Below, piece after piece: positions 1,915 through 64,000 of a stretch of 64,000 nt of DNA (position 1 is the stretch's first letter; every line of letters starts with the position of its first letter). The DNA lies in the NCBI GenBank assembly GCA_951406725.2, contig OX597818.1, forward strand, positions 80,972,001-81,036,000, given 5' to 3'. The translations under genes and the position numbers were made by a program. Below the pieces are notes generated by a model. The model had not been told where the DNA came from. It worked only from the letters and a program-made list of their open reading frames with translations, and searched no databases. This DNA comes from Octopus vulgaris (Eukaryota).

Positions 1915-1955
<41 letters not shown>

Positions 1956-3622: not shown

Positions 3623-3696
3623 TAGCCAGATAACTGAAGAGATGGTGTTGTGGATTTCCACTTCGGCATCTGAAACTCAGAGTTTTATCTTGACTA
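3623..3696 (+). ncRNA. Type I hammerhead ribozyme motif in the PLE pseudo-LTR (mirror copy at 2046-2119 on the minus strand has a CCGAAGA core)
   Basis: agataa-CTGAAGA-GATG..gtgga/tccac..CATC-t-GAAA-CTCaGAG-TT-ttatct. Stems I, II and a palindromic III are all present, with one extra nucleotide before GAAA. Confidence 0.7.
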
Positions 3697-3778
3697 CCGA
3701 GTAATGTAACATATTGTATAGATATATATATATATATATATATAGATATATGTATGTACAAATATACGTGTTTGTAAA

Positions 3779-12908: not shown

Positions 12909-12943
<35 letters not shown>

Positions 12944-13519
12944 GTGTGTGTGTGGGTGTGTTGTAGTGATGTTCATGCTTTTGGAATGTCAGTTTACATA
13001 TTAAAGCTAAAATAAAGGTGAGTGGCTTATGACTGATTGTGACTAGGTGGTTTATGATGGTCTGTGACTAAATGCTTCTCATTCATGCATGAATTTTGGT
13101 CTTTGTAATGAAATCCTTATCGAGGCATCAACACCCTCATAATTTACACACTTGATGACTCCTCTACCAATTATTAGAAATTCTTAAAATTATACAGTGA
13201 GTTTTTGTTTGTTTGTCTTTTATTCTGTTATTCTGTTGCTTGTTTCAGTCATTTGACTGTGGCCATGCTGGAATACTGCCCCAAACGGTTCTTTTTTTCA
13301 GTTGAAGAAATTGACCACAGGACTTACTCTTTGTAAGCCTTGCATCCACTCTATCAGTCTCTTTTGCTGAGCTGCTTGTGTATGGGGATGTAAACACACC
13401 AACACATTCTTTGTGAGCAAAGATTTGCTGGGGCACAGCGAATGTCTACGTCTATCCCTATTCAAAACTGAAAGGCATGATTGCAAAGTCTGCATGGGAA
13501 GGTGGGCTGGTGTTGGGTT

Positions 13520-13940
13520 GGTCATGATGTCCTTGTTTTTTCTTCTTTTGTCTTGTTTGTGAGGATAATGTTGTGGCTGTCTTCAAAGGAAGTTGTTGCT
13601 TGAGGGAGTGTGATGCCAGGCTTCATGGTCATTGGCAAGAACAGTGGTGATCAATCTGGTAGCCATTGAGGTGTTTCTTTAGTATGTCCTTGTACCACAT
13701 CTTTGGATCTCCTCTACCACCTTGATCAGAGGAGGGTTCACCATACAGTGTGATCTTAAAGTCAATGATCCTCTATCCTGGTATGTCTTGTCCAACATAG
13801 CTGTATCTTTTAGTAGAGTTGCTTTGATGCTGGTGACTTTCATCAGCTCCAGAGCCTTGGTGTTAGTGATGAATTCACTCCAAACGATACTGAGGATGAT
13901 GCAAAAGTAGTTCTGATGGAATCACTCAAGGAGTAAGTTT
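13520..13940 (-). pseudogene. RTE-clade LINE ORF2 C-terminal fragment
   Basis: Minus strand reads ...YVGQ...KITLYGEP...GRGDPKMWYKDIL, like the RTE LYGEL...RG.P..RYKD motif. Confidence 0.55.
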
Positions 13941-14526
13941 CTAGTTACTCATTGATGAAAATAATAAATTACTATCATTATCACTATCCTCACCATCATC
14001 ATCATTTAACGTCTGTTTTCCATGCTGGCATGGGTTGGACGATTTGACCAGAGCTAGCAAGCAGGTGAGCTGCACCAGGTTCCAACCTGATTTGGTCTGG
14101 TTCCTATGGCTGGATGACCTTTCTAATGCTAACTCTACAGAGTGTACTGGGTGCTTTTCACCTGGCAAAGGCATTGGTGTTATTACATTGTACTGACATG
14201 GGTGCCTGCTACATGGTACTGGCATAGGTGTTATGTAGTGCTAGCATGGGAGCTTATTGTGTGGCACCACCATGGGGTTCCTCTTAATGAATCAGTTTAT
14301 GTATATTATACTTTACTCTTTTACTTGTTTCAGTCATTTGACTGTGGCCATGCTGGAGCACTGCTTTTAGTCGAAGAAATCAACCCCAGGACTTATTTTT
14401 TGTAAGCCTAGTACTTATTCTATCGGTCTCTTTGCTGAACTGCTAAATGATGGGGATGTAAACACACTAACATCGGTTGTCAAGTGATGTTGGGGGACAA
14501 ATACAGACTCACAAACATACACACAA

Positions 14527-14578
<52 letters not shown>

Positions 14579-15281
14579 TACATACATACATATATACACA
14601 CACACACACACACGCATATATATATACGACGGGCTTCTTTCAGTTTCCGTCTACCAAATCCACTCACAACGCTTTGATCGGCCTGAAGCTTTAGTCGAAG
14701 ACACTTGCCCAAGGTGTCACGCAGTGGGACTGAACCCAGAACCATGTGGTTGGTAAGCAAGCTATTTACCACACAGCCACTCCTGCGCCTATATATATTT
14801 TATTAATATAGATGTTCTTTTCTACTCTAGGCACAAGGCCTGAAATTTTTAGGGAGGGGACCAGTCGATTAGATCGACCCCAGTACACAGCTGGTACTTA
14901 ATTTATTGACTCTGAAAGGATGAAAGGCAAAGTTGACCTCGGCGGAAATTGCACTCAGAATATAGAGCTGGAAAAAATACCACTAAGCATTTTTCCCGGT
15001 GTGGTAACGATTTTGCCAGTTTGCTACCTGAACTCGGATTGTAGAGACAGATGAAATACTGCTCAGTATTTTGCCTGACATGCTACCATTTCTGCCAGCT
15101 TGCCACCTTATTGATATAAGTATTATAGGCACAAGCATGGCAGTGTGGCAAGAAGCTTGCTTCTTAACTGCATGGTTCTAGGTTCAGTCCCACTTTATGG
15201 CACCTTGGACAAATGTCATCTGCTATGCCCTCAGGTTGATAAAAACCTTGTGAATAGATTTGGTAGACAGAAACTGGAAGG

Positions 15282-15509
15282 TGGTGAGCTGGCAGAATCG
15301 TTAGCATGCCGGCGAAATGCTTAGTGGTATTTTGTCTGCCCTTATGTTCTGAGTTCAAATTCCGCCGAGGTCGACCTTGCCTTTCATCATTTCGGGGTCG
15401 ATAAATTAAGTACCAGTTACGCACTGGAGTCGATGTAATTGACTTAACCCCTTTGTCTGTCCTTGTTTGTCCCCTCTGTGTTTAGCTCCTTCTGGGCAAT
15501 AAAGAAGTA
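15282..15509 (+). mobile_element. SINE family B (ggtgagctggcagaatcgttagc...gagttcaaattccgccgagg...gcctttcatcctttcggggtcgataaattaagtaccag). Many other copies, e.g. 480-810, 14815-15110, 26251-26480, 26803-27024, 31740-31940, 33320-33770, 47310-47535, 49630-52670, 63230-63400
   Basis: tRNA-like head with B-box GAGTTCAAATTCC and a Nin/Deu-like central domain. This copy has a 13-bp TSD agaaactggaagg (15269-15281 and 15510-15522). Confidence 0.85.
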
Positions 15510-15533
15510 AGAAACTGGAAGGAGCCCACAGAG

Positions 15534-15576
<43 letters not shown>

Positions 15577-16060
15577 CTTTGTCTCTATCCTGCACCACTA
15601 CTTAACTACTGGTGTCTGGTATGTTTATGTCCCTGTAACTTAGCAGTTTGGCAAGAGAGCTCGTTAAAATAAATACCAGCCTTTAAAAAAAAAAAAAAAA
15701 TGTACTGTGGTTGATTCATTTGACTAAAACTTCTTTGAGGCTGTCCCCCAATATGGCCGCTGTCGATTGAAACAAGTAAAAGATAAATGATAAAAAATAT
15801 AGTTGGAAAGCAAGATTCTTAGCCATAGAGACATGTGTTCTTATCACCATACCTGTGCCTTGCAAGGTTCTTATAATATTCTTACAGTCTTCATCAATGG
15901 TCAACTTCCAATTTGAATGTGATCATTCACTTGCCTTTACTTTACATATTCACTACTAGGCATAGCAGCTAAATCTCCATCGTAATATACATTATTATAC
16001 AAGCTCCTGAAACTATACATACTTCGTATCAGATAGTGTATGAAAAAAAAAATAGTTGAA

Positions 16061-16133
16061 GGAGTCAAGTGGAACTTGAACCCATATTTGCCAGTTAGAG
16101 TCTATAAGTGCTTTGCTGATTAACCTACTGACC
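16061..16133 (-). pseudogene. Degenerate tRNA-like sequence (tRNA pseudogene or isolated SINE head) followed by oligo-T
   Basis: Minus strand GGTCAGTAGGTTAATCAGC...GGGTTCAAGTTCCACTTGACT followed shortly by a T-run. The anticodon arm pairs poorly. Confidence 0.3.
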
Positions 16134-16720
16134 ATTCAAATATTTTCCTGTCTCCTTTATTATCTCATATAAACATAGGTTTATGAGGTTATCAAGAATG
16201 CCACCCTCCTCCTGAGCATGTATGTGCAGGATTTGCCTCTGTGTGTGTGTGTGCGTGTGTGTGTGTGTGTATGTATGTATGTGTGTGTGTTTTGACATAA
16301 CTCATTTTCTCTCTCTCTTTCTCTCTCTGATGTGTGTCATATGTACGTATATGCATATATTATGCATACATACATACACAAATACGTATGCACGTGTGTG
16401 TCTATGTACACACACATATATACTGAGATAATGTATAAATATATATATATATTAATATTAAAGCAAACATATGTACACACATGTATGCATACACGTGTGT
16501 GTGTGTATATAATATATATATATACATATATGTTATTTATATATATATTAGATAGATAATATATATAAATAATATATATAATACATATATAAGTAACATA
16601 TATATATATATATTATATACACACATATCTATCTATCTATATATATATTATATAATACATGTATACATATGTGTATGGTCATATACATATTCATACATAT
16701 GCATGCATGTATGTGTGTGC

Positions 16721-16764
<44 letters not shown>

Positions 16765-16927
16765 ACACACACATACATATATACATATACGTACACACTC
16801 ACACACAGACAAACACATATATAATAGATATATATATATATTATACATACATATATATACATACACATATATACAAATAGTATATATATATACATATATT
16901 ATATATATACATACAGATATATATATT

Positions 16928-16959
<32 letters not shown>

Positions 16960-17034
16960 CATACACATATATGTACATGTATATACATATGCATATAATA
17001 AATATATATATACACACATACACATGTATATGTT

Positions 17035-17095
<61 letters not shown>

Positions 17096-17729
17096 GTTTG
17101 GAGACAGGAAATTAGTATGTAACTAGTAGTTTAATAAGAGAAAGACACTTTGGGGTTGCTCTTGACAATGTGGTAATTAAAGACCTGTCTTCTCCTTCTT
17201 CTTGTGGTCATTATAAGACCCGTTTCCTCCTCCAGCAGATGAAATAGAACAAAACAGACTCTGTACCTAACCTTGACAGGCGTTAACCACTACAAGAATA
17301 ATGAGAAAAATATGGAGAGTAGTACTCCCTCTGCTCCCATTGCTGCTGGTGCCGTTGCCACCTCCGCCGCCACCACCACCACCGCCACCACCACCACTAC
17401 TACAGCTGATACCATCAACTCCAGCACTTGACTGGTACTTTATTTTATCAAGCACCGAAAAGATGAAAAGGAGAGTTGACATTGGTGGGATCTGATAATA
17501 ATAATAATAATAATAATTTCAAGTTTTTGCCATGAGGGCAGCTGGAGGAGGTGGGGATAACTGAAATACATTGACCACCAGTGTTCAACTGGTACTTATT
17601 TTATCGAATCTGATAGGATGAAAAGCAAAGTCAACTTTGACAGAATTTGAACTCAGAATGTAGTGATGTGCGAAATACTGCTAAGAATTTCGTTGAGCAT
17701 GCTAACGATTCTACCAGCTTGCCTCCTTC

Positions 17730-17763
<34 letters not shown>

Positions 17764-17765
<2 letters not shown>

Positions 17766-18794
17766 GATGTGTAATGTCAGTTGGATGTGTAATGTCAGTG
17801 TGCATACTCGTGGATGTGTAATGTCAGTGTGCATACTCGACAGAGCGTTAGTACCTTGAGAGAAATGTTGGATTTAAGAAGCATCAGTTGTGGTGTGCAA
17901 GAGAGACGATTGCGCTGGTATGGTCATGTGGCGAGAATGGATGAAATTAGGTGTGTGAAAAAGTGCCAATCCCTAGCAGTTGAGGGAACCTTTGGAAGAG
18001 GTAGACCCAGGAAAACCTGGGACGAGGTGGTGAAGCACGACCTTCGAACTTTAGGCCTCACTGAGGAAATGACCAGCGACCGAGACCTTTGGAAATATGC
18101 TGTACGTGAGAAGACCAGGCAGGACAAGTGAGTCCAGCCCACTTATGCATGCCTTTCCTCCCTTGGACACACAAAGACCTGTTGAGGCAAGCGAAGTCGA
18201 TATCGAACCTCATCCGACGACAGGCACCCATGCCAACCCCACTTTGCTTGTGAAGACCTGTTGGGGAAAGTGAAATTGAAATCGAAATCGGAATCGAAAT
18301 AATCCTATGACTGGCGCCCGGCAGATGCCAGGACCCCTGGACTGGTGGTATGTAAAAAAGCACTATCCGAATCATGGCCGATGCCAGCGCCGCCTCGACT
18401 GGCTTCCGTGCCGGTGGCACGTAAAAAGCACCATCCGAATCGTGGCCGAAGCCAGTGCCACCTCGACTGGCTTCCGTGCCGGTGGCACGTAAAATGCACC
18501 ATCCGAATCGTGGCCGAAGCCAGTGCCACCTCGACTGGCTTCCGTGCCGGTGGCACGTAAAATGCACCAATCTGACCGTGGCCGTTGCCAGCCTCACCTG
18601 GCACCTGTGCAGGTGGCACGTAAAAAGCACCCACTACACTCACGGAGTGGTTGGCGTTAGGAAGGGCATCCAGCTGTAGAAACATTGCCAGATAAGACTG
18701 GAGCCTGGTGCAGCCTTCTAGCTACCCAGATCCCAGGTCGAACCGTCCAACCCATGCTAGCATGGAGAACGGACGTTAAACGATGATGATGATG
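17764..18794 (+). mobile_element. 5'-truncated RTE-clade LINE: ORF2 C-terminus (to stop at 18131), 3' UTR with 68-bp internal repeats, and (GAT)n tail
   Basis: RRLRWYGHVARMD...GRGRPRKTW.E.V..DL...DR..W motif; ends ggacgttaaacgatgatgatg. UTR-only copies at about 10600-10745, 13994-14160, 27400-27775, 36725-37035, 42650-43078, 51370-51655 and 59430-59800. Confidence 0.9.
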
Positions 18795-20114
18795 AATAAT
18801 TCTTTTCTAACTTTGCTCCAAGGCCAGTAGTTTTGAGTGTTAGGGTAAGTCAGTTATAACAACTCCAGTGCTCTGTTGGTACCTAGTTTAGCAACCCCAA
18901 AAGGATAAAAGGCAAAGTTGATCTTGGCAACATTTGAACTCTGAAAATAAACAGCTGGAAGAAATGTCACTATGCATTTGTCTGGTACTATAATGATTCT
19001 ATCATCTTGCCACCAGGGTCCATGTCTTTGAGCACAATAAGAAGGCAAAATATAAACATGCTAAAATGGGGTTTACTCTGATTAAAAAAAGTCAACAGAA
19101 ACAAAACTTTTGACAATAAAAGTTTTCCCAGTTGAGAAGAAGACTGCCTAGGGCAGTGTTTCCCGGCATATTTTCCCCTTGGCTCCACTGTAACTCTCAA
19201 GAGAAATATATGCCACACTAGTGGTTGGAAAAAAAAAAAACGACTTCACTTTTAATATCTTATAACAATTATTTAATACAAAAGGATCTACCGGTAGCTC
19301 TTTTATGAAATAATGAGTACAAAAAAAAAAGTACATTATTGACTAAGAAAGGAAAGTGAGTCAATTTAATGAAAATCTTGTACCTGGTGATTATGGCAGA
19401 TTTCCTTGATTTGAGGAGACAACTTTGTTAGTTTCACTACATTTTGTAGTTTCAAGTTTGTTTCTCTTGGCTCAAAGCAAATCATCAGCAGCATTAAAGC
19501 CACATTTAAACAAATAAAACATGGGGAAATGAATCAAAAGTTCCCTTGCTGAAATGGCAGTGTTAGGGTATTTTCTTTCCAACATCTTCATATAGCCACA
19601 TCTTGGTACCTTTCATTTTGAAAAAAAGGTGTTCATTGATTCTTTTTGTATTAAATAATGGATCCCATTCTCCACCACAACTTTCCCAGGCTCCACTGGC
19701 AGAGGTGTATGTCCCACATTGGGAATGATTGGTTTAGGTTATTTTGAAGAAACTCCATACAAAGGTGCCAATGTTTTCGGTCAGAAGTTGGAAGGAAAAA
19801 CTGAGAGAGTGTATTCTACTAGTTTTTTACTTCCTGCCTAGAAAATCTATTCAGTCTTGCCCCGTTGAACCTAGTCTGGACACTCTCACCCACCTTTTGT
19901 CAAACACACAAGATGGAAGCACCTCTCTCTCTTACCTTTGTCTTAGATGAGAGCTTGACCAAATAAGAAAATATCTGTCTACAAGCCATTTGGAAGATTT
20001 CAACTCACAAACTCTTTGACCATTACCATCTAACAGACTAAGACTTGCTGGACATCTCTATCAAAAGTAGGTGGCTGTGTCAGTCTTCTCTAAATCTAAG
20101 TGAAAGAAACGTTC

Positions 20115-49753: not shown

Positions 49754-50535
49754 TTCATGTTAACTGGAATGGCTCATGTACTGAGAAGAGCATTATCGCT
49801 GTGAAAACAACATCCATTCATGAATTTATTTATTCATTAATTTTTTAAATACATATTTTACCTGTGAATTTGTGTGTGTAATCTGGGAATGCATACAATG
49901 AGCTTCTCTGCCCTAGGTGTACGGAAAACACTCAGCGAGAAACGGAAGAAAATTTGAAGAAAGAAGGAAAAATAATAATAATAATAATAATCCTTTCTAC
50001 TATAGGCACAAAGCCTGAAATTTAGAGGAGGGAGCTAGTCAATTTCATCAACCCAAGTGTGTAACTGGTACTTATTTAATCGACCCCAAAAGGAAAAAAA
50101 AACAAAGTCGAACCCGGAGGAATTTGAACTCAGAATGTAGCGGCAGACGAAATACCACTAAGCATTTTTCTCGGTGTGCTAATGATTCTGCTAAGATCAC
50201 TGCAATAATAATAATAATAATCCTCTCTACTATAGGCACAAGGGTTGAAATTTTGGAGGAGAGGGCTAGTTGGTTACATTGATCTCAGTATTCAGTTGGT
50301 ACCTGTTTGATTGATTCGAAAAGCATGAATAACTGAGTCAACCTCAGAGAAATTTAAACTCATTGAGCCAGAAGAAATGACATTAAGCATTTTGTCTGAC
50401 ACATTAACGATTCTGTCAGCGCATTATATTACTACTAATAGTGATAATAATCGATTTTGCTATAAGCACAAAGCTTGAATCTTTGGCCAAAAAAGCAAGT
50501 AGGTTACACTGACCTCAGTACTCAGTTGGTACCTA
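49754..50535 (+). repeat. Local duplicate of about 52175-52905 plus 54493-54565, flanked by 14-bp direct repeats
   Basis: Near-identical text. tttcaagttaagta occurs at 49740-49753 and 50536-50549, and the copy interrupts a family B SINE. Confidence 0.85.
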
Positions 50536-51927
50536 TTTCAAGTTAAGTAGCAGTTACACACTGGGGTCAAATTTCAGACCTTGTGCCTATTGTAGAAAGG
50601 ATCATCATCATTATTATTATTATCATTATTATTATTTGAGTTGAAATTCTGCCAAGGTCAACTTTGCCCTTCATCCTTTTGGGGTTGATAAAAGTAAGTA
50701 CCAGTTGAACACTGGAGTTGATGTAATCTACTTAATCCCTCTCCTGAACTTACTGGCCTTGTGTCAGAATTTGAAACCAATATCAGTTTCAAATTTTGGC
50801 ACAAGGCCAGCAATTTCAGGGATGGGGTTAGTTGATTACATCAACCTCTATCCTCAACTTGTACTTGTTTTTATCAATCCCGAAAAGATGAAAGGCAAAG
50901 TCGACTTCAGTGGAATTTGAACTCAGAACATAAAAGTAGACGAAATGCCACAGCATTTTGCCTGGCATGCTATCAATTTTTCCAACTTGTTGCCTTCAGT
51001 TTTAGCAGTATTAGAATCAATATTGCTGTTATTATTAACATTATTCACGTTTCCCATTAAATTTCTGTTCATTTTTATTTATGTTTTTGACACTATTATT
51101 GTTGTTCCCATGGTTATTGTATTCCCTGTTGCTTATTATAGTTCTTATTGTTACTGGAGCTGTCATTTTTATTATAAGTGCTGATTTTTCTTAGTCATTA
51201 TTATTTTTATGGGAACATGTATGATAATTATAGCTGGAATAACTACAGTAACAATAACAATTGTATAAGCAACTTGAACAACTACAAAGAAAACCATGAA
51301 AATAATAACTATGATAGAGCTAAAAATAAAAATTACTTGACTGTTGAGTCAAGTAAAGCTTAATTTGTACCTGTGACCAGCGATTCCTGAGTGGTTCCTC
51401 TTCTGGTGACATGTAAAATGCTTCATCTGAATGTGATTGATGCCAGGCCCGCCTGACTGGCTCCTGTGCTGGTGGCACATAAAAAGCACCCACTACTCTC
51501 TCAGAGTGGTTGGTGTTAGGAAGGGCATCAAGCTGTAGAAACATTGCCAGATCAGATTGGAGTCTGGTGCAGCTGCTGGCTTCCCAGAACTCAGTCAAAC
51601 CGTCCAACCCATGCCAGCATGGAAAACGGATGTTAAACAATGATGATGATGATGTTATAAAAATAGAAACTTAAACAAAAGGGTGAATAATGCTAATAAT
51701 AATTATTATAATCTTTTCTACTATAGGCATAAGGCCTGAAATTTGTTTCACTGGTACTTAATTTATCGAACCTGAAAAGATGAAAGGCATAGTCGACCTC
51801 AGTGGAATATGAACTCAGAACGTGAAGATGGACGAAATATCGCTAAGCATATCACTCAGCATGCTAAGGATTCTGCCAGATAACTGCCTTAATAATGATG
51901 ATAATAATAATAATAATAATAATAATA

Positions 51928-52390
51928 AAGATCAGACAAAAAGGATGTGTTTATTAATTAACATGAGTATTCCTGGCGATCACAATATAGCGGCGAAAGA
52001 ATTTGACAAGATTAGTAAATATAAAGACTTGCTAATAGAAATTGAAAAAAATGTGGCATCTCAAGGCGACTACAGTACCAGTGATTGTAGGATCTCTAGG
52101 AATTATAAAAAAAGGTACTGAAACCGATTTGAAAATGATACCAGGCTTACCATCCCTACAGGAAGTGCAGAAAATCATGTTAACTGGAATGGCTCATGTA
52201 CTGAGAAGAGCATTATCACTGTGAAAACAACATCCATTCATGAATTTATTTATTCATTAATTTTTTAAATACATATTTTACCTGTGAATTTGCGTGTGTA
52301 ATCTGGGAATGCATACAATGAGCTTCTCTGCCCTATGTGTACGGAAAACACTCAGCGAGAAACGGAAGAAAATTTGAAGAAAGAAGGAAA

Positions 52391-52391
<1 letters not shown>
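51928..52391 (+). mobile_element. 5'-truncated R4/Dong-clade non-LTR retrotransposon (restriction-like endonuclease C-terminus plus 3' UTR) inserted in (TAA)n
   Basis: Reads CLLINMSIPGDHNI..KEFDKISKYKDL.IEI/KMWHL....VPVIVGSLG...L.EVQK..L (one frameshift). (AAT)n flanks both sides. Confidence 0.85.
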
Positions 52392-52423
<32 letters not shown>

Positions 52424-52680
52424 TATAATCCTTTCTACTATAGGCACAAAGCCTGAAATTTGGAGGAGGGAGCTAGTCAATTTCATCGACCCGAGTGTGT
52501 AACTGGTACTTATTTAATTGACCCCAAAAGGATGAAAGACAAAGTCGACCCCGGAGGAATTTGAACTCAGAATGTAGCGGCAGACGAAATACCACTAAGC
52601 ATTTTTCTCGGTGTGCTAATGATTCTGCTAAGATCACTGCAATAATAATAATAATAATAATCCTCTCTACTATAGGCACA

Positions 52681-54492
52681 AGGGTTGAAATTATGGAGGA
52701 GAGGGCTAGTTGATTACATTGACCTCAGTATTCTGTTGGTACCTGTTTGATTGATTCGAAAAGCAAGAATAGCTGAGTCAACCTCAGAGAAATTTAAACT
52801 CATTGAGCCAGAAGAAATGACACTAAGTATTTTGTCTCTGATACATTAACGATTCTGTCAGCACATTATATTACTACTAATAGTGATAATAATCGTTTTT
52901 GCTATAAAAGGGTTGAAATTTTGGAGGAGAGGGCTAGTTGATTACATTGACCTCAGTATTCAGTTGGTACCTGTTTGATTGATTTGAAAAGCATGAATAA
53001 CTGAGTCAACCTCAGAGAAATTTAAACTCATTGAGAAAGAAGAAATGACACTATGCATTTTGTCTCTGACACATTAACGATTCTGTCAGCACATTATATT
53101 ACTACTAATAGTGATAATAATCGTTTTTGCTATAAAAGGGTTGAAATTTTGGAGGAGAGGGCTAGTTGATTACATTGACCTCAGTATTCAGTTTGATTGA
53201 TTCGAAAAGCATGAATAACTGAGTCAACCTCAGAGAAATTTAAACTCATTGAGCCAGAAGAAATGACACTAAGTATTTTGTCTCTGATACATTAACGATT
53301 CTGTCAGCACATTATATTACTACTAATAGTGATAATAATCGTTTTTGCTATAAAAGGGTTGAAATTTTGGAGGAGAGGGCTAGTTGATTACATTGACCTC
53401 AGTATTCAGTTGGTACCTGTTTGATTGATTCGAAAAGCATGAATAACTGAGTCAACCTCAGAGAAATTTAAACTCATTGAGCCAGAAGAAATGACACTAA
53501 GCATTTTGTCTCTGACACATTAACGATTCTGTCAGCACATTATATTACTACTAATAGTGATAATAATCGTTTTTGCTATAAAAGGGTTGAAATTTTGGAG
53601 GAGAGGGCTAGTTGATTACATTGACCTCAGTATTCAGTTGGTACCTGTTTGATTGATTCGAAAAGCATGAATAACTGAGTCAACCTCAGAGAAATTTAAA
53701 CTCATTGAGCCAGAAGAAATGACACTAAGTATTTTGTCTCTGACACATTAACGATTCTGTCAGCACATTATATTACTACTAATAGTGATAATAATCGTTT
53801 TTGCTATAAAAGGGTTGAAATTTTGGAGGAGAGGGCTAGTTGATTACATTGACCTCAGTATTCAGTTGGTACCTGTTTGATTGATTCGAAAAGCATGAAT
53901 AATTGAGTCACCTCAGAGAAATTTAAACTCATTGAGCCAGAAGAAATGACACTAAGTATTTTGTCTCTGACACATTAACGATTCTGTCAGCACATTATAT
54001 TACTACTAATAGTGATAATAATCGTTTTTGCTATAAAAGGGTTGAAATTTTGGAGGAGAGGGCTAGTTGATTACATTGACCTCAGTATTCAGTTGGTACC
54101 TGTTTGATTGATTCGAAAAGCATGAATAACTGAGTCAACCTCAGAGAAATTTAAACTCATTGAGCCAGAAGAAATGACACTAAGTATTTTGTCTCTGACA
54201 CATTAACGATTCTGTCAGCACATTATATTACTACTAATAGTGATAATAATTGTTTTTGCTATAAAAGGGTTGAAATTTTGGAGGAGAGGGCTAGTTGATT
54301 ACATTGACCTCAGTATTCAGTTGGTACCTGTTTGATTGATTCGAAAAGCATGAATAACTGAGTCAACCTCAGAGAAATTTAAACTCATTGAGCCAGAAGA
54401 AATGACACTAAGTATTTTATCTCTGACACATTAACGATTCTGTCAGCACATTATATTACTACTAATAGTGATAATAATCGTTTTTGCTATAA
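52681..54492. repeat. Young tandem array: 8 copies of a 228-bp unit derived from a family B SINE (minus orientation) plus flank
   Basis: Units start at 52681, 52909, 53137, 53355, 53583, 53811, 54038 and 54266 (one 218-bp and one 227-bp variant). Confidence 0.95.
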
Positions 54493-56027
54493 GCACAAAG
54501 CTCGAAACTTTGGCAAAGAAGGCAAGTAGGTTACACTGACCTCAGTACTCAGCTGGTACTTATTTCACTGCCTCCCCCCCCCATCCCCGCAAAGGACAAA
54601 TAGCAAAGTTGACATTGGTAAAATTTAAATCCAGATCCTGAACTGCCAGAAGAGATTGCTATGCATTTTGTTCAACACACTAATGATTCTCCCAGCTCAT
54701 TGCCTTATTGTTAATGATAATAATGATTTCAAATTTTGGCGCAAGGCCAGCCATTTCGGTGGAGGGGTTAAGTTAATTACATTGACCCCAGTGTTCAACT
54801 GGTATTTATTTTATTGACCTTGAAATGTTGAATAGCAAAGTTACCATGGCAGCATTTGAACTCAAAATGGAAAGACATGAAATGCTGCTAAGCATTTTGC
54901 CTGGTGTACTGACTTCTGCCTGCTCACTGCCTTAGTAGTAGCAGTAGTTGTAATAATAATAATAATAATTAGCAGGATCCATGAACATTTCACAGAATTA
55001 ATGGTAAATTTATTGGGTTATTTCTGAAAACTTCATCCCAAAATTAGACATTTCACTCACTACCTGACCTATTTTCCATTACATTTCAGACAGATTCACT
55101 GCTGAGTTGTTGAAGCAGAAATATCATCACAGCAAATATTCTGCTCAATACCACAGATATGCTTGTCAGTTGTATGATCTTAACCACTTGAGCATGTCCT
55201 TTAGTCTCTGACAATATGTGCATCTCTGATCATGAGCAGGAGTAGGTGGGGAGCATCATAGCCTTGTGTTGAGAGGGCTTCTTTGGGGTTTGAATAAATA
55301 TCATAACCAAAGCAAAGTTTGAAGGAAATATTAACCAATTTTCATACTGTGTGATGGCAAGCAAATATGAATTAACGCTTGCTACCCAAGGACAAAAATC
55401 ATGTTACACATTGTTATAGGTTTGCTTGATCAGAGCTGATCTAGAACAAAACAAAAACATGTTTACAAGTAGGATGGGTTTCACTACCAATTGAAAACTG
55501 ACTCGTGTCTGTGACAAGAACACATGAAATCAGGATTGAGGACTAGAAGCAATTGATTCATGTGCTGGTTTCCTCCCCACTCCCATGTTCTATCAACTTG
55601 GGTCTAGCATATTTTAACTAGTTTTAATTGCTTGCCTTGGATAAGACTACCAACCCACCAATCTGTCTTCTCAAAGTTATAAAGTCCCTCCCTCTTGTGA
55701 TATGAATGTCAATCAAATACATACTTAATGGCAACTTTGAATTCATTGCATAGATTTAGTTGTGACAATAGCTAAGGCATAATTCTTGTCAGTTTAGTTC
55801 AGCTTGTCAAAGAAATGAGGTTGTTGTCTGGTAGAATGTATAATGCATGATCATGTAACTCATTATTTATAGGTTTTGGCTAACCTAGATTAAAATTTTC
55901 CATTGTGCTTTCCTTTAATGCTAATGATGTGTTTTAATTAATTTTGAGGATAATCATGTTTAGTGAGTTAGTAAACAACTAAATTGTGATGATTAAATCA
56001 GTGTTTAGCACAAAGCTCTTACATATA

Positions 56028-56936
56028 CAGTAAGCGAGCAAAAGAAAGAGAACAATTAATATTTTTTTTAAATGTCGGAAAAGCTAGTAAATGCACAAAT
56101 TCGCAATTGGTTTTGTAAATATGGTTAACAATTAGCTAAATTCTGCAAAAAATTTAAATCTGTACAATGGTCTTAATAAAAGTTAATAACATTAACATTA
56201 ATTTTGTCCAAATGTCTCATGTGCAAAATAAGAGAATGATTAGATTCCTTCAGAAATTTCTGGAAATTTCAAACATTTGCAGGCTCAACATTACTACCAT
56301 CTCAGTATCGTGCTAACTTCCAAAAATGGCACAGCATGCTAAAGTTACTCCCAACCTTCGAAAAGAAATTCTCAGAATGAAACTTTCAGGAATGATTCGC
56401 TCGGCTATTTCATGAAATGTGAGGAGATCTAAGAGTGTAGTTTCATTTGTTCTCAAGCTCTGTGGAGAAACTAAAGTTTTGAACTGAAAAAGGCAACTGG
56501 TAGACCATGCCAAACCACCATGCGAGATGATCGAGCTATGAAACAGTATGTATTGAAGGATCCTTTCGAGACTGTGGCTGGAATTTCTAAGAAAATAAAA
56601 GAAGTGAGCTGCCTTACAGAGTCTCGTCGTCTGAAGGAATTTGGATGAAAGACTTATTCTCCAGCAACAAAACCTACCATCAGCAAGAACAAATTGGAAG
56701 ACCATCATTTGCAGAAGCTCGTGTGATCTGGAGGGATGAAAATTGGTCAAAAGTTTGTTTTAGTGATGAAAACAAATTCAATTTAGTTGGTTCAGATGGT
56801 AGACAGTATGTTAGATGCTTCACAGGAGATCGGCTAAAATCCAAGTGTCTGAAGAAATCTATCAAGTTTGGAGGAGGAAGCGTCATGGTGTGGGGAATGA
56901 TTTCTTCTGAAGGAGTTGGCCTTCTAGTGCAGATTA
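56028..56936 (+). mobile_element. Truncated, decayed Tc1-family (DD34E-type) transposon
   Basis: TA|CAGT left end; ATG at 56326 opens an HTH-like region with stops; WSKVCFSDENKFNLVGSDG..YVR...KFGGGSVMVWGMIS..GVG.L contains the first catalytic Asp. The C-terminal half is missing. Confidence 0.88.
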
Positions 56937-57283
56937 AATTAGTAATGAACCACAATCCTTTACAAGCTATGACCCCAGTGGGCTTCATGCTATTCTTGGA
57001 AGTGTAGTTTATTCTTAGCTACAATAGCAACAACATGAATTTCTTCCATCTTGCTCTGTTAAAGTACTTGAGAAAAATTATATTAATGTATCCAACTGGT
57101 TAAAATTCTATTTATTTATGCAGCTGAGGATTGCTCTGCATTTAACTTGATGTAATGATTGCATTGTTCAATTAAATGGAGTTGCTTGAAACAGTTGTAC
57201 TGCATTACCTCTGGATATTCTTGTTGCTTATTTTGATTATATGTATGTTTATATTATATATCTGTCTGTCTGCATGCATACAT

Positions 57284-57316
<33 letters not shown>

Positions 57317-57451
57317 GCAACAGGTTATCAAGAAGTGATGCAGTATGACCATTTCAAGCAACTCCATTTAATTGAACAATGCAATCATTATATCAAGTTA
57401 AATGCAGTGCTATCATCAGCTGCACAAAGATACACACACATGCGCACACAC

Positions 57452-57716
57452 AAATATTTATATGTTTCTATGGATGTAGTAAAACCATCTCGCATAGACT
57501 TAAGTAACTGAAAAGTATCTATTTACGATCAAGAAAGATAACAACATATAAGGGATAAGAGGTTAATAGGTTATGCACATATATGCATATATACACATAT
57601 ACAAATATTTATACGTTTATATGGATATAGTATAACCATCTCGCATAGACCTAAGTAGCTGAAAAATATCTATCTAAGAACAGTAATAACTTATAAGGGA
57701 TAAGAGGTTAATAGGT
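57452..57716. repeat. Imperfect tandem duplication of about 150 bp
   Basis: aaccatctcgcatagac and ataagggataagaggttaatagg each occur twice. Confidence 0.7.
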
Positions 57717-58316
57717 AAGGATATCAAAATAAGAAAACAAAATAATAAGAAATATATATAAACTACATTTAAAGAGACAGGGTATTAAAATTTGAGGTAG
57801 GGAAGAGATAAAGGTAACCCCAAAAGAGGAGGTAGGAGGTATGGGTGTAGTGAGGGCAGTTAGAAGTATTCAGACCGAAGAGATTTTATAAGTTGGAATG
57901 TTACAGCTGCTATTTTATATATGATTTTATAGTTTCTAGTGGGTATATATATATGTAATGACTTTTATATAAGTAAGTCTCCTAATTATTCTTAAATGAG
58001 ATACCACAAGCAGTCATGTAGAACTCACACTGAAACCAAAACAATAAGGATTAAAGTGAAAGAAAAACTTGATTATTTGCTTCATAACTAAGCAGAATGA
58101 GGCAGCAATACAGTCTAATCACCACTGATGTCTTATAAATGCTAAGAATTTATTGAAAGCCAAGAGTGCTATGCAACCTTACCCATATTCAGACAAGTTT
58201 TGCATAAGAATACAAACATGGATTCAGTGATTACCTATTTTAAAAAATTGCTTGAAAGTGAATTCACTTTAGTTATTTATGCATAAAAGTATATTTAAAT
58301 ATGATATGGGAAATTA

Positions 58317-58611
58317 GAAATATTAAATTTCTCAATATCTCAGAGAGATATTAGCGGTGGTGGAACGATAGAGCGGTTGTATACTGCCAACTGCATCCAG
58401 AGGCATGACATGCTTCTGAGTCTTGCTCGTGGTCAGTCTGGAGTAGCAAGGCCTTCTAGCTGAAGATACCTGTCTAGGCCTTGTAAACATAAGGACACAG
58501 GAAATGTGTCAAGGCCGACAACAGGAAGTGTTGATGCTTCCTAGGGCTAAATAGCGGTGGTGTAATTCCCTCTATGGGACTGTCACATTAAGTTGGCAGT
58601 ATACAACCGCT
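58317..58611 (+). mobile_element. Unclassified highly structured non-autonomous element, copy 1 (candidate retrozyme-like)
   Basis: TSD atatRggaaatt (58304-58315 and 58612-58623); inverted repeat agcggttgtatactgccaact / agttggcagtatacaaccgct; motifs shared with 62188-62572. Confidence 0.65.
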
Positions 58612-58752
58612 ATATAGGAAATTGTTTTTGAGGAAAAAAAAATTTTAATGTTGTATCTCTAATGTACGTATGTATACATACACATGATATAGTTATGATG
58701 AAGCCTTTAAATGTTTATGCTTTTCAGTTCTGTATTCTTTTCTCTTTGACAG

Positions 58753-58845
58753 ATGTTTCGTCTGCTGCTCGGTCCTATTCTGAAGCCTTGGTGAAGATAG
58801 GTCAAACTGCTATAAATAGATCTACAGGACCCACACAAAATATTG
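58753..58845 (+). CDS. BAIAP2: Next coding exon (93 nt, phase 1 to 1) of the IRSp53/BAIAP2-like gene: (N)VSSAARSYSEALVKIGQTAINRSTGPTQNI(G)
   Basis: Acceptor ttctttttctctttgacag and donor GTATAG. The peptide matches IRSp53 GVTYAAKGYFDALVKMGELASESQGSKELG, and its phase is compatible with the upstream exon (A+AT = Asn). Confidence 0.85.
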
Positions 58846-58988
58846 GTATAGTAAATTTTATTGGTTGCATTCTTGTATTCTTTTATTGGTTTAATCCAGT
58901 GTTTTTCAACCATTTTTTTTATCTTTGATTTCTATTTTGCTCAGATGGACCTGCCTAGTCATTCAATCTTTAAAAAAATCCTATTGTT

Positions 58989-59389
58989 GGCATAGGAGTG
59001 GCTGTGTGGTAAGTAGCTTGCTTACGAACCACATGGTTAGGGGTTCAGTCCCACTGCGTGGCACCTTGGGCAAGTGTCTTCTACTATAGGCTCGGGCAGA
59101 CCAAAGCCTTGTAAGTGGATTTGGTAGACGGAAACTGAAAGAAACCTGTTGTATATATGTATATATATGTGTATGTGTGCGTATATGATTGTGTGTCTGT
59201 GTTTGTCCCCCCAACATTGCTTGACAACCAATGCTGGTGTGTTTACATCCCTGTAACTTAGCAGTTCGGCAAAAAAGACTGATAGAATAAGTACTAGGCT
59301 TACAAAGAATAAGTCCTGGGGTCAATTTGCTCGACTAAAGGTGGTGCTCCAGCATGGCCACAGTCAAATGACTGAAACAAGTAAAAGAG
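58989..59389 (+). mobile_element. SINE family C (ggcrcaggagtggctgtgtggtaag...ggttcagtccc...accttgggcaagtgtc...[microsatellite]...cagtcaaatgactgaaacaagtaaaaga). Other copies 10752-11163, 31282-31670 (+) and 7400-7806, 8968-9328, 14313-14789, 25317-25740, 40525-40926, 43217-43573 (-)
   Basis: Near-identical ~400-bp copies in both orientations with an A-box (TGGCTGTGTGG), a B-box-like GGTTCAGTCCC and an internal TA/TG microsatellite. Confidence 0.9.
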
Positions 59390-60047
59390 TATTTTTATAG
59401 TTAACTACTATTAGGAATTGTATAAAAATAAGCCAAGTGAAATTGTAGTTGTGGATGATGCCAGTGATGCGTAACTGGCACCCATACTGGTGGCTGGTGG
59501 CACGTAAAAGGCACCCTTCAAACTTTGGGTCACATGGAGACAGTGACAAGTGACTAAGACCTTTGGCAATATACCTTGCTTGAGAAGCCAAGTGAGATTG
59601 TAGTCATGGCTGATGCCAGTGTTTCATAATTGGCACCTGTGCTGGTGGCACGTAAAAAGCACCCACTACATTCTTGGAGTAGTTGGTGTTAGGAAGGGCA
59701 TCCAGCTGTAGAAACTTGTCAGATCAGATTAGAACTTGGTGCAGCTCCCTGGCATATCAGTTTTCAGTCAAACCATTCATGGAAAACAGACATTAAATGA
59801 TTATTAATACTATTATTACAGAGATGTACTTGCATAGCAAGTGATTTGATCTGAGATCGTGTGCTGAAACGAAAACAATTGCAGCGTGGAAGGTGTTTGT
59901 AAGCCATTTAAGAAACACACAATGCAGCACAGATTTTTGTCAGTGAACAGGTCGCGGTCTTAAAGCGACGAAAATATTTTGACAAATTAAACTTAAATGT
60001 TGAAGTGAATCGAACGGCTTTTGTGTGTTTCTTAAATATTATTATTG

Positions 60048-60049
<2 letters not shown>

Positions 60050-60086
<37 letters not shown>

Positions 60087-60142
60087 CATTATTATTATTA
60101 TTATTATCATTATTATTATTATCATAATTATTATTATTATTA

Positions 60143-60188
<46 letters not shown>

Positions 60189-60291
60189 CATTATTATTAT
60201 CATTATTGTTATTATTATCATTATTATTATTATCATTATTATTATTATTATTATTATTATCATTATTATTATTATCATTATTATTATTATT
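60050..60291. repeat. (TAT)n/(CAT)n trinucleotide tract
   Basis: Directly visible. Confidence 0.95.
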
Positions 60292-60928
60292 AAAATATTT
60301 TGTGTATTGTAGAAATATAACCAATATATTGGAGATAAATTTTAACTACAAAATCTTATATGGGCCCCCAAAGGTTATATAGACCCTAGTTTAGAACCAC
60401 TGGTTTAATCCATTGGATTGAAACCATACAGGGTCACTGCATTGCATGGGGCTCTTGTCTTGTCTCATAATGGCATTCACTTGGGAGGGGTTAAACCAGC
60501 TCGATTTGGGTTTATGTGTGAGTTCATAGGAATTTCAAGGGATGATCAAAGTTCTTGCAAACAGTTCCTGTCTGTATTTGTAAGCCACTGTGCATGCCTG
60601 GTGGCAGGTCATCCTTGTGTTATGCCTTCTTGCTGCTGGATAGCTGCTGATGTGATCCAATGCCTCCAGGAAACTGCTAGATTCTGGAACAGATGCTGCC
60701 TGGAATACACCATTATCTTCCAGTTAGCTGGGTTGTGGCCCCAGCATTGCTGGTATCAGACCTGTTTGCCTTGGGTGATCCTACTAGATACTCGAAGTCC
60801 CCAATAACATAGCTCTGGCACACATTCGTTTAACCTTCCCACCTTGATGGGGTCAAGGGTTGGATTTTGCGGAAGGTGTGTGTGGGGCACAGCTTGATTT
60901 TACTAAATTTATGTCTCTTTACGGATAC

Positions 60929-61154
60929 AACCCTTTCATTACTGTATTTATTTTGAGATGCTCTGTGTTTCTTTCAATTACTTTAAATATAACAAAGAAT
61001 TTAGTAAAATAACTTAGTTATCATTCAACTAGTGTTAGGAACATAAATTGTGACTAAGGTTTGGTGGAAGATTTTAATTCAAAACTTACGAAAACAAGAC
61101 ATTTGTACTCAGAGCCAGAGCTGGTTTCAGCCGGGTTGGTAACGAAAGGGTTAA
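60929..61154. mobile_element. Second piggyBac-type MITE family (ccctttcattac...gtaacgaaaggg-ttaa)
   Basis: 12-bp TIRs with one mismatch, starting CCC; TTAA on the right side. Confidence 0.6.
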
Positions 61155-61184
61155 ACTGGCCATATCTGGCCCAAACATTCTAGG

Positions 61185-62035
61185 AAGATTAGGCCTCTCC
61201 AAATTGGTCAGATGAATCAAAATCAAGCTGTTCATTGCAACTGTTGAATCAGTGCTATTATATGGCAGTGAAACCTCTTCTATCACCTCTGTCTACATCG
61301 CATCACTTTGTCTCCATCAATTCAGTGTGACACCAGTGCAAAATCACCTCCCTCTGACAAGTCATCCTAACGAGACGTCTGCATTGGCTGGTCATGCCCT
61401 CTGTTGTCAACCAGGAGAATTCATCTATGAAGCAATTGCCCCAGCTCCCCTTCAGGGTTGGTGAAAGTAATGTGGTGGACAACGAAAAACCTGGCTGATG
61501 ACAGTCAAGGTTGATCTGGAACCCAACCATGGCTACGGCATTTGCCGCTGGAATAAGGAGTGGTTGGAGATCACATGGTCATTAGCCTCAAATCACCAGG
61601 CCTGGTCGGCACTTGTGAGAGATGCCACAATGAGGATGAATGAAGCCAGCTCAACCCACCCCGGTGAATGCTGTCTCATGACAAGACAAGAAGTAAAACA
61701 TGGATACTGAGAAGGAAATTATCAAACAGGCTAAATGGATGCTACACAAAGATGTTACGAATGGTCCTAAATGTGAAACGGCAGCAACATATGACAAATG
61801 AATGCCTTTATGGAGACCTGCCGAAAGTTAGCGAAAAGATCAGGCAAAGATGGCTGCTACTATCTGGACACTGCATGTGCCACCCTGAACTGGAAGCGTC
61901 TGAATTAAACTTGTGGAACCCACTTCATGGAAAATATCATGATACACTGACAACTTGATCAGAAACACTGGCCTGGAATGTATCCAGGACCTTGAGGCAG
62001 TATGTTGGACCGAGAAGTGTGGTGGGTAGTCTTTG
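61185..62035 (+). pseudogene. Two decayed RTE/RTE-X LINE ORF2 C-terminal fragments
   Basis: Reads KIKLFIATVESVLLYGSET and LNGCYTKMLRMVLNV..QQHMTNE.LYGDLPKVSEKIRQR.L.L.GHC..HPE. Confidence 0.7.
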
Positions 62036-62187
62036 TTGCTGTAGCCTTGGCTGGAACCCAGCCATAAAAACAAAATAAGGCTTCTCACATGTATCCTGCA
62101 ATGTCATTCTAAAAATAAAACAATCACATCATTGGAATCTTGAAGCTATAAGATAATGTGTAATTGATTCAAAATAATGTTAATTAA

Positions 62188-62572
62188 TATTAATACTTAT
62201 CGCCAAGCTAATATGGTAGTCCAGAAATATAGGACGAATGCTGCCATTGATTAGCTCCAAGAGGCCATCACCTCTAGCTAGGTATGTGACACATGAACCT
62301 GTGTCCATTATAACCTTCGAACAGGGGAGGTCAGCCATTTCCCCTTGTTGGTCAGGCATCTGCAGATTAGTTTCAGGGTATTTGCCCTTTATCAATGCAG
62401 AGCAGCCGAACCCAGCAGGCATCACTACTGACTGTCTGTTCAATGGATTATTTACCTAAATTCAGCATTCGTCCTATATTTCTCGACTGCCATATTAGCT
62501 TGGCGATAACTATTAATATCCAGTGCCACTGCTGTAGTCTCCTTTAGAGAGACTTAGAAATATTAATATTTC
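62188..62572 (-). mobile_element. Unclassified highly structured non-autonomous element, copy 2, with a degenerate hammerhead (62360-62400, minus strand)
   Basis: Perfect 13-bp TSD taatgttaattaa (62175-62187 and 62573-62585); ~56-bp inverted repeat at 62188-62243 and 62463-62518. It interrupts a piggyBac-type MITE. Confidence 0.75.
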
Positions 62573-63705
62573 TAATGTTAATTAAGCGTTACATTTGATG
62601 GAGCAATCTGAATGCTAAGGGATGATTAAACCAGCCACATCCAGCCCAAACAGTCTGCCTGTTTTATGTTCAAACAAGTCAGATCTGGCCTCTCACACCT
62701 ACCCAACAATGTCATTTAAAAAATAAACAATCATATCATCAAAATGTTGAAGCTATGAGATAAAGAATGATAAATTTAAAACAATGTGAATGAATATTAC
62801 ATTTGATGAAGTTATCTGATTGCTAAAGGATTAAATATGACAAAGTATATACACAGATTTTACAAGCACGTGTGTGTGATATTGGCAGTATTTCTGTGTG
62901 TGTGTCTCATATCTACATTATATGTGCGTATGCAATAGCTACACATATACATGTGAATATGTGTGTGTTTGCACAATATCTATACTATATATGTGTATGA
63001 TATCTGCAGTGTATGTTGGGTATCTATAGTATGCATATGTGCATGTGTGTGATATCTATGGTATACGTTTGTATATGTGTGTGTGTGTCATATCCTCTGT
63101 ATATGTGTGATATCTACAGTGTGTGTGTTGGATGTGTATAGTATGCATGCGTATGATGTCTACAGTAAATGTGTGTATATATCCGTCTGATATCTACAGT
63201 GTGTGTGTGTATACATATGTATATATATATTTCTTTATTGCCCACAAGGGGCTAAACATAGAGGGGACAAACAAGGACAGACAAATGGATGCAGTCGATT
63301 ACATCACCCCCCAGTGCATAATTGGTACTTATTTAATCGACCCCGAAAGGATGAAAGGCGAAGTCGACCTCGGCGGAATTTGAACTCAGAATGTAGCGGC
63401 ATGATGATGACTGCCTTGTTGTAATACACAAACACACACACACACACACGCGTGGTTTGTACACCCGTGTCTATAAAGAGATTTTCTCGCAGGTGAAAAT
63501 CACATATTATGTTTACACTGATGTATATACATTAAATATAGTATACAGATAGCTATTCTAATGAATGATTAATTTCACAAATGAATGCTATTAGATTATA
63601 ATGAATCTTATTAAATTACTGTTTTAGTCTGAGAACTTAAACTAAATTATTGTTTGCATGTAATACAGGAAGTTCTGGTCTTGCTCCAAGTAACCAAAGC
63701 AATAC

Positions 63706-63751
63706 CTATCACTGAAGAGGTGAAATCGCACTGAAACAATGTGTTTGGTAG
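63706..63751 (+). ncRNA. Apparently intact minimal type I hammerhead ribozyme
   Basis: CTATCA-CTGAAGA-GGTG-aaatcg-CACT-GAAA-CA-atg-TG-TT-TGGTAG. Full core, 6-bp stem I (one G-U pair), stems II and III, and a GUU cleavage triplet. Confidence 0.65.
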
Positions 63752-64000
63752 TCTGCTGATATCACTTGAAGCTTGGCTTAATGTGTTTTTAGACACAAAT
63801 TCTACAAAGAGACAATTTTCCTTCCATGACAACAAAATTCCATAGCATATTCCTTTCATATTTTAGTGTAGAGTAACATGTTAAAAATAAACGTACACAT
63901 TTTTTATTTTGATCCTAACTGCTTCATGTGTGCATAAATCATCATCATCATTATCAGCAGTACATCTGTTTTTCTATGCTTGCATCAATTGCATGAGTTC

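What the first reader, a model, noticed from the sequence alone, without database searches (positions are those of the whole stretch)
58304..62585. Candidate undescribed retrozyme-like family: two diverged, TSD-flanked, end-paired structured elements, one with a hammerhead
Seen: 58317-58611 (+) and 62188-62572 (-) share little overall identity but have the same architecture in sense orientation. Each starts with a hairpin GAAATATTAA(T)ATTTC, then a second hairpin (atatctc/gagatat versus gtctc/gagac), then AGCRGTGG. A long inverted repeat (21 versus 56 bp, unrelated in sequence) follows, and its partner forms the 3' terminus. Internal motifs recur in the same order: CTGMAGATRCCTG, GGACACAGG-n-ATGTGTCA (a gacaca/tgtgtc hairpin) and TAGMGGTGRTG. 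Both have 12-13-bp TSDs. Copy 2 contains CTGCA-ttgataa-AGGG-caaata-CCCT-GAAA-ctaa-TC-TGCAG, a type I hammerhead fold with a core decayed from CTGATGA. Copy 1 has other hairpins at this position and no recognisable HHR. Known: metazoan non-LTR retrozymes are short non-coding HHR-bearing retroelements with TSDs and are linked to PLE machinery; Helentron HINEs have asymmetric inverted repeats but no TSD. Inference: conservation of structure rather than sequence points to a mobile structured-RNA family, possibly with an exchangeable ribozyme module.
Basis: partly seen in the sequence, partly recalled or inferred. Interest (0 to 1): 0.8.

Follow-up and report, generated by a model that had tools for sequence, protein, structure and literature searches.

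The report
Truncated fold-back Penelope retroelement ends
The two short hairpin-shaped insertions are real and related, but they are most likely the ordinary truncated tail ends of Penelope-like jumping genes (an inverted end piece plus a direct piece, one carrying a small hammerhead ribozyme motif), not a new family of structured RNAs.

Summary
Both elements exist, are homologous (alignment score 16; best of the window controls -32) and carry 12-13-bp target duplications; a paralogous empty site confirms element 2's. The anatomy fits the published insertion pattern of endonuclease-positive Penelope-like elements (PLEs): a 5'-truncated direct copy of the 3' end, preceded by an inverted copy of the extreme end plus a one-sided 'tail'. 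The 'unrelated' inverted repeats are homologous and differ only in length. Reads from four runs show element 2 belongs to a high-copy family whose inversion junction differs between copies. Its hammerhead core is probably not decayed: the majority keeps U3-A8, a variant published for PLEs, and restores the GUC site within a palindromic helix III. Element 1 has no hammerhead; its family was not sampled. No protein-coding parent was found, so a non-autonomous master remains possible. A coding Hydra-clade-like PLE elsewhere in the window shows the same asymmetric inverted ends. Verdict: new member of a known kind, low interest.

The parts
58304..58315 (+). element 1, left copy of the 12-bp target duplication, ending in ATT
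   Evidence: aligns to element 2's tail, score 40, 0 of 2000 shuffles; lengths
58372..58392 (-). element 1, inverted copy of the last 21 nt of the body
58393..58611 (+). element 1, direct 5'-truncated body (pLTR-like 3' end); imperfect palindrome at 58398-58418 next to the inversion junction; no hammerhead found
   Evidence: body aligns to element 2 body, score 47, 0 of 2000 shuffles; fold; scans
58612..58623 (+). element 1, right copy of the target duplication (11 of 12 identical)
62175..62187 (+). element 2, target duplication copy at the tail-less end
62188..62462 (-). element 2, direct 5'-truncated body; its last 56 nt (62188-62243) are the repeat arm
62359..62401 (-). type I hammerhead motif: helix I 6 bp (62401-62396 with 62364-62359), core U3-A8 variant (62395-62389), helix II 4 bp, GAAA (62374-62371), minimal palindromic helix III, predicted cleavage after 62365; the window copy has a private change at 62367
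   Evidence: variant described in PMC4209133
62463..62518 (+). element 2, inverted copy of the last 56 nt of the body; family contigs match the body up to 62465, so about 3 nt of microhomology at the junction
62519..62572 (+). element 2, inferred PLE tail (54-55 nt) ending in a perfect palindrome
   Evidence: (depth falls after 62572)
62573..62585 (+). element 2, target duplication copy at the tailed end (reads ...ATT-A on the minus strand)

Best explanation
Both elements are likely short, dead-on-arrival insertions of the 3' ends of two related Penelope-like retroelement families, each built from a 5'-truncated direct copy joined head-to-head to an inverted copy of the extreme end that carries a roughly 55-nt tail. 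Shown: target duplications, homology of bodies, arms and tails, high copy number of the element-2 family, and junctions that differ between copies. Inferred mechanism: the PLE GIY-YIG endonuclease cuts both strands of AT-rich DNA about 12 nt apart; each 3' end primes cDNA on the element RNA, one at the distal start site (tail end) and one at the proximal start site about 55 nt upstream; both cDNAs stop early and are joined by microhomology, which leaves an asymmetric inverted repeat with a one-sided tail between 12-13-bp duplications. The long end-pairing stem is then a by-product of insertion, not a selected RNA structure. The hammerhead is the usual pLTR motif, of the minimal type thought to work as a dimer, and is predicted to be inactive as a lone copy.
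For: Architecture as published: inverted pLTR plus optional 31-bp tail inside a 9-bp TSD (PMC3846280); 30-40-bp tail at either end, on one end only; inverted repeats that vary in size by copy (PMC2377424); anole PLE protein cuts and extends both strands, prefers 5'-ATT-3', and starts RT at two sites whose interval is the tail (PMC11167929). Here both TSDs end in ATT beside the tail (ATT frequency 2.6% per position and strand), tails are 55 and 54 nt and homologous; summed depth in run X1 about 240,000 at 62258-62278 against 17.6 for the contig identical to this locus; depth falls towards the body's 5' end (about 60,000 at 62384-62404, 12,000-19,000 at 62405-62467); of 32 pieces shown (of 24,303), 8 reach 62457-62467, 4 of them go on for 29-42 letters unlike the window and none runs on into the inverted arm; of 15 joints shown (of 131), 3 join the body to the inverted end piece at other places (62314/62539, 62403/62485, 62407/62486) and 1 (62374/62571, opposite strands) reads as a partial tandem. 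Majority letter at 62367 (98% in X1) gives GAAAC-UA-GUC; 62368 and 62369 both change in about a third of X1 depth (37 contigs each), which keeps the helix III palindrome; palindromic helix III and a U3-A8 core are published PLE hammerhead traits (PMC4209133). A predicted ORF from an unnamed contig (P0002) matches the body frame to its last residue and continues with IQ, as the tail frame does, which suggests body-arm-tail in direct order there. Internal control: a coding PLE remnant at about 1945-3725(-) has the same asymmetric inverted ends and hammerhead-like motifs on both strands.
Against: No RT/GIY-YIG ORF was linked to either family: no genome was available, and protein searches with the body frame found no PLE protein. 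The tails (54-56 nt) and TSDs (12-13 bp) are longer than the 30-40 nt and 8-10 bp in the passages read. Element 1 has no recognisable hammerhead and its family was not sampled. The depth gradient can also come from subfamily divergence below the 80% cut-off, and contigs break at inverted repeats, so the lack of a bridging piece alone proves nothing. The three alternative junctions are one contig per run each and could be internal deletions. The ATT could be microhomology with the tail palindrome (which extends over the TT in element 2) rather than nuclease preference. Helix II closes with A-U, not the conserved G10.1-C11.1. In the anole PLE the region after the hammerhead codes for the ORF start; here the majority letter at 62282 puts a stop in the only open frame.
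Confidence: 0.84

Rival explanations
1. One reading: a non-autonomous retrozyme-like family whose master RNA is the whole end-paired 300-400-nt unit, copied as a unit by PLE proteins, with structure under selection and a ribozyme module that can be swapped or lost.
For: High copy number and sharp outer boundaries; no coding parent found; several contigs leave the window sequence at 62372-62374 or 62391, inside the hammerhead (table 8); retrozymes are reported as PLE derivatives with many monomers (10.64898/2026.07.22.740005).
Against: Junctions differ between copies and 4 shown contigs continue upstream with non-arm sequence; arms of the two elements are homologous ends of different length; no tandem unit at either locus; internal folds of the two bodies differ; majority changes are 15 of 16 transitions, 9 of 16 at CpG, and show no compensatory pairs in the predicted body fold.
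Confidence: 0.09
2. Helentron-derived HINE or Helitron2-type non-autonomous rolling-circle element read on the other strand: terminal repeat, sub-terminal partner about 55 bp from the end, then hairpins.
For: HINE sub-terminal repeats lie 38-60 bp from the 3' end with a palindrome near the end (PMC4067079), which resembles the layout.
Against: HINE repeats are 12-15 bp, define families, and insert at TT with variable T runs; here repeats are 21 and 56 bp with variable junctions, and a 12-bp duplication is confirmed by an empty paralogue; a hammerhead motif is present.
Confidence: 0.03
3. A MULE- or Foldback-type miniature DNA transposon with long terminal inverted repeats and long TSDs.
For: Long inverted repeats and a long TSD; MULE TSDs of 9-11 bp are recalled, not tested.
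Against: One arm is 54-56 nt from the end, arm length varies, coverage is biased to one end as in 5' truncation, and a hammerhead motif is present.
Confidence: 0.03

Closest known systems
Complex insertions of endonuclease-positive Penelope-like elements: inverted 5'-truncated pLTR plus one-sided tail (Adineta Pen2a, Drosophila Penelope, anole Poseidon PAc)
   Same: Asymmetric inverted repeat of variable length, tail on one end, TSD, AT-rich/ATT target, type I hammerhead upstream of the end, palindrome next to the junction in element 1.
   Different: No ORF in the inserts; tail about 55 nt rather than 30-40; TSD 12-13 bp rather than the 8-10 bp in the passages read; the sequence after the hammerhead is not an ORF start in the family majority; clade unknown.
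Minimal PLE hammerheads, including the U3-A8 core variant of Schistosoma Cercyon (Cervera and De la Pena 2014, PMC4209133)
   Same: Type I, U3-A8 core, tiny palindromic helix III, mostly single motifs tied to truncated PLEs.
   Different: Helix I 6 bp and helix II 4 bp as in canonical metazoan motifs; A-U instead of G-C at 10.1-11.1.
Metazoan non-LTR retrozymes (PMC7229834; 10.64898/2026.07.22.740005)
   Same: Short, non-coding, type I hammerhead, long TSD, PLE-linked.
   Different: Defined as tandem repeats of 150-450-bp units processed to circular RNA; these loci are single fold-back inserts with an inverted end copy and tail.
HINE / DINE-1 (Helentron derivatives, PMC4067079)
   Same: Asymmetric inverted repeat with terminal hairpin.
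   Different: Short family-defining subTIRs, TT insertion, no long TSD, no ribozyme.

Membership tests
EN+ Penelope-like element insertion | RT plus GIY-YIG ORF upstream of the pLTR | not testable with these tools
   No genome held; inserts are too short; searches with the body frame found no PLE protein.
EN+ Penelope-like element insertion | Adjacent inverted 5'-truncated end copy of copy-specific length | tested here: met
   21 and 56 bp homologous arms; three other junctions and four contigs with other upstream sequence.
EN+ Penelope-like element insertion | Tail extension on one end only | tested here: met
   54-56-nt homologous extension on the inverted end of both; longer than the published 30-40 nt.
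EN+ Penelope-like element insertion | Target-site duplication in AT-rich DNA | tested here: met
   12-13 bp, both ending in ATT; empty paralogue for element 2.
EN+ Penelope-like element insertion | Hammerhead motif in the pLTR | tested here: inconclusive
   Met for element 2; not found in element 1, whose family was not sampled.
EN+ Penelope-like element insertion | Partial tandems and 5' truncation gradient | tested here: inconclusive
   Depth falls towards the 5' end and one joint reads as a partial tandem, but divergence can mimic the gradient.
Non-LTR retrozyme | Tandem repeats of hammerhead-bearing units | tested here: not met
   Single inserts at both loci; no unit-length tandem joint among the 15 of 131 joints shown.
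Non-LTR retrozyme | Self-cleavage and circular RNA | not testable with these tools
   Only contigs were laid; no run on record as RNA holds the stretch.
HINE / Helentron | Insertion at TT without long TSD; 12-15-bp subTIRs | tested here: not met
   12-13-bp TSD with empty paralogue; arms 21 and 56 bp.
TIR DNA transposon (MITE) | Terminal inverted repeats at both ends, fixed length | tested here: not met
   One arm is 54-56 nt inside; junctions vary.

The most novel reading that the evidence does not exclude
The element-2 family is a non-autonomous, ORF-less PLE parasite with a conserved U3-A8 dimer-type hammerhead and an unusually long (55-nt) double-hairpin tail, and its thousands of tiny fold-back copies, some truncated just upstream of hammerhead helix I, are a genomic record of two-strand priming at the two RT start sites.
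Probability: 0.2. Interest if true: 0.45.

Novelty: new member of a known kind. Interest (0 to 1): 0.2.

Why it matters
Mainly as a correction: short fold-back PLE stubs look like structured RNAs or MITEs and are easy to misfile. As data, the family offers many natural insertions to test two open points of PLE biology: whether inverted ends come from priming on both target strands at the two RT start sites found in vitro, and whether the pLTR hammerhead (here U3-A8, with a palindrome-preserving double change in helix III) is selected to cleave as a dimer.

Tried and rejected
Whole-genome search: no genome held. Rfam: no ribozyme match in 56000-64000 (23 weak hits, all below gathering scores) or in 62300-62460 (0 hits). 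BLAST of both elements against the window: no third copy. Pattern scans: viral contigs 0 hits twice; metagenomes 2 hits, both chance matches in bacterial-looking DNA with no further likeness. Earlier findings by sequence, place and first word search: nothing. Expression: no RNA holder listed; run X10 is RNA only by guess, its contigs carry family pieces but cannot show transcription. The 89-codon open frame at 62455-62189(-) as a PLE ORF start: rejected, the majority letter at 62282 (99.6%) makes a stop; phmmer gave 5 hits, 3 unrelated low-complexity bacterial-type repeat proteins and 2 short unnamed ORFs from Logan contigs; the longer-protein search found none; the profile search returned only the 2 inputs. 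A hammerhead in element 1 around CTGAAGA (58460) or GAAATGTGTC (58502): no helix II/GAAA arrangement fits. My first scan also missed element 2's and the Hydra-like motifs because it was too strict; the relaxed scan was written knowing the motif, so its 4 hits against 0-1 in 10 shuffles are not a blind test. The window-wide inverted-repeat scan recovered only element 2, missing two known cases, so it says nothing about others. Tail and body motifs were not in the octopus Naiad/Hydra consensus supplement (0 hits for 3 tail motifs; line breaks can hide matches). tRNA-type Pol III boxes were considered by eye and are not shared by the two elements. Whether the family is in Repbase or Dfam could not be checked; six paper searches showed no description of it, but TE libraries are not in the searched text.
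Full report
Observation. They are homologous: global alignment score 16, against at best -36 in 500 shuffles and -32 in random window stretches. Element 1 has a 12-bp duplication (11 of 12 identical) and element 2 a 12-13-bp one. Element 2 sits in a host repeat, and both of its flanks align to the same 12 bases of an uninterrupted paralogue about 200 bp away; 4 of the 15 joints shown also skip the element. The inverted repeats are 21 and 56 bp. Both strands fold far better than shuffles, as any long inverted repeat does. The host looks like an octopus: the PLE peptide at 2925-3398 resembles Hydra-1_Obim as printed in a supplement (compared by eye), and the SINE-like repeats are recalled as octopus types; this was not tested further.

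Several details do not hold. The arms are not unrelated: element 2's arm aligns to the end of element 1 (score 27, 2 of 2000 shuffles). The third internal motif lies on different sides of a shared hairpin in the two elements. The AGCRGTGG match relies on three letters private to this copy.

Family data. No genome was held, so I laid contigs of four public runs (three coded organisms; 4 of the 24 listed) on 62090-62690 at 80% likeness. Element 2 belongs to a high-copy family in 4 of 4 runs: summed depth in X1 is about 240,000 in the body against 17.6 for the contig identical to this locus. The tool warns that this is no copy number; I read it as hundreds to thousands. Depth drops outside 62187 and 62572, confirming both ends. 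Inside, it falls towards the body's 5' end and is lowest at the junction with the inverted arm. Of 32 pieces shown (24,303 in all), 8 reach 62457-62467; 4 go on for 29-42 letters unlike the window and none continues into the arm (for minus-strand records this uses my reading of record coordinates, cross-checked on X4 record 22 and X5 record 31, probably one locus). Of 15 joints shown (131 in all), 3 join the body to the inverted end piece at other positions and 1 reads as tail end followed by a truncated body, a partial tandem. So the fold-back is put together differently in different copies. The window copy differs from the majority at 16 of the element positions shown, 15 by transitions and 9 at CpG, which marks an old, decaying insertion.

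The hammerhead. The majority letter at 62367 gives GAAAC-UA-GUC; 62368 and 62369 each change in about a third of X1 depth with 37 contigs each, which would swap one palindrome for another (co-occurrence inferred from equal counts). No change is listed at 62395 or 62390. Only 40 of 106 rows are shown, but each shown row reaches about 40% in some run, so the majority core is probably UUGAUAA: U3-A8 in place of C3-G8. Cervera and De la Pena report this covariant, a palindromic minimal helix III and dimer-dependent low activity for PLE hammerheads, and say most motifs are single and probably tied to truncated PLEs (PMC4209133, parts 1-2 of 4 read). Against full canonical status, helix II closes with A-U and Rfam does not score the motif. 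Element 1 has only CTAG-CTGAAGATACCTG, which resembles the sequence from helix III onward; no complete motif was found, and its family was not sampled.

What it is. Read in the hammerhead's sense, each insert is [inverted end + tail][direct truncated body without tail]. That is the published PLE pattern: an inverted pLTR with an optional 31-bp tail inside a 9-bp TSD, and palindromes at inverted junctions (PMC3846280, passages); a 30-40-bp tail at either end but usually one only (10.1101/2021.04.23.441226, passages); inverted repeats that vary by copy (PMC2377424, passages); also PMC8969392 (passages). The anole PLE protein cleaves and extends both strands, prefers ATT, and starts RT at two internal sites whose interval is the tail (PMC11167929, parts 1-2 of 4; its supplements gave no term hits and the GenBank file was unreadable). 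Here the tails are 55 and 54 nt, homologous (score 40, 0 of 2000 shuffles), and both TSDs end in ATT next to the tail. P0002, a spurious ORF from an unnamed contig, follows the body frame to its end and continues with IQ as the tail frame does, weak support for body-arm-tail in direct order. The window also holds a coding Hydra-like PLE remnant with the same asymmetric inverted ends and hammerhead-like motifs on both strands (Pfam GIY-YIG E 0.011, below cut-off). PLEs cover 6.83% of Octopus vulgaris in 190 families (PMC13282606, passages and one supplement row).

Mechanism. Shown: duplications, homology, variable junctions, conserved motif. Inferred: a staggered cut about 12 nt wide, both 3' ends priming at the two start sites, early stops, and joining by microhomology (about 3 nt in element 2). 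The long stem is then a by-product. The hammerhead is predicted to need a partner copy and to be inactive in this lone, mutated insert.

What stays open. No coding parent was linked, and the one open frame is broken in the majority, so the template may be a non-autonomous PLE derivative; retrozymes are argued to be such derivatives (10.64898/2026.07.22.740005, parts 1-2 of 5; PMC7229834, passages), but these loci lack tandem units. Tails and TSDs are longer than in the passages read. Two of the three alternative junctions (62403, 62407) and a threefold depth fall lie just upstream of helix I, in line with unchecked earlier notes from other genomes; two contig-level cases are only a hint. HINEs resemble the layout but have short subTIRs and TT insertion (PMC4067079, passages).

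Verdict. A real but ordinary object: truncated fold-back ends of two related PLE families. New member of a known kind; interest 0.2.

Noticed in passing
window ~1945-3725 (-): Hydra-clade-like PLE remnant in a (TA)n tract: RT end and GIY-YIG frames (2925-3398, 2308-2976), near-identical inverted copy of its 3' end (~3404-3723), one-sided tail of about 65 nt, hammerhead-like motifs at +3634 and -2108.
   Followed up: partly
window ~63704-63760 (+): A third hammerhead-like motif (CUGAAGA core, 4-bp helix II, 6-bp helix I with wobbles), possibly another PLE stub; no inverted partner seen within 63300-64000.
   Followed up: partly
window 58755-58847 (+): Probable exon just downstream of element 1; the peptide recalls I-BAR (IRSp53/MIM) proteins, from memory only. 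The elements would then be intronic.
   Followed up: no
window ~50350-54430: Tandem repeat with a period of about 228 bp, seen as regularly spaced short matches.
   Followed up: no
window 56313-57018: Frame 56591-57007(+) looks like a Tc1/mariner transposase fragment by recall; Pfam gave no hit at E 0.1.
   Followed up: partly
window 62524 (loose ends): 15 contigs in X1 leave the tail at 62524 with a related but diverged continuation, pointing to further subfamilies with their own tail versions.
   Followed up: no
window 62372-62374 and 62391 (pieces): Several contigs stop matching inside the hammerhead at the same positions in different runs, suggesting subfamilies with different helix II or upstream core.
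   Followed up: no
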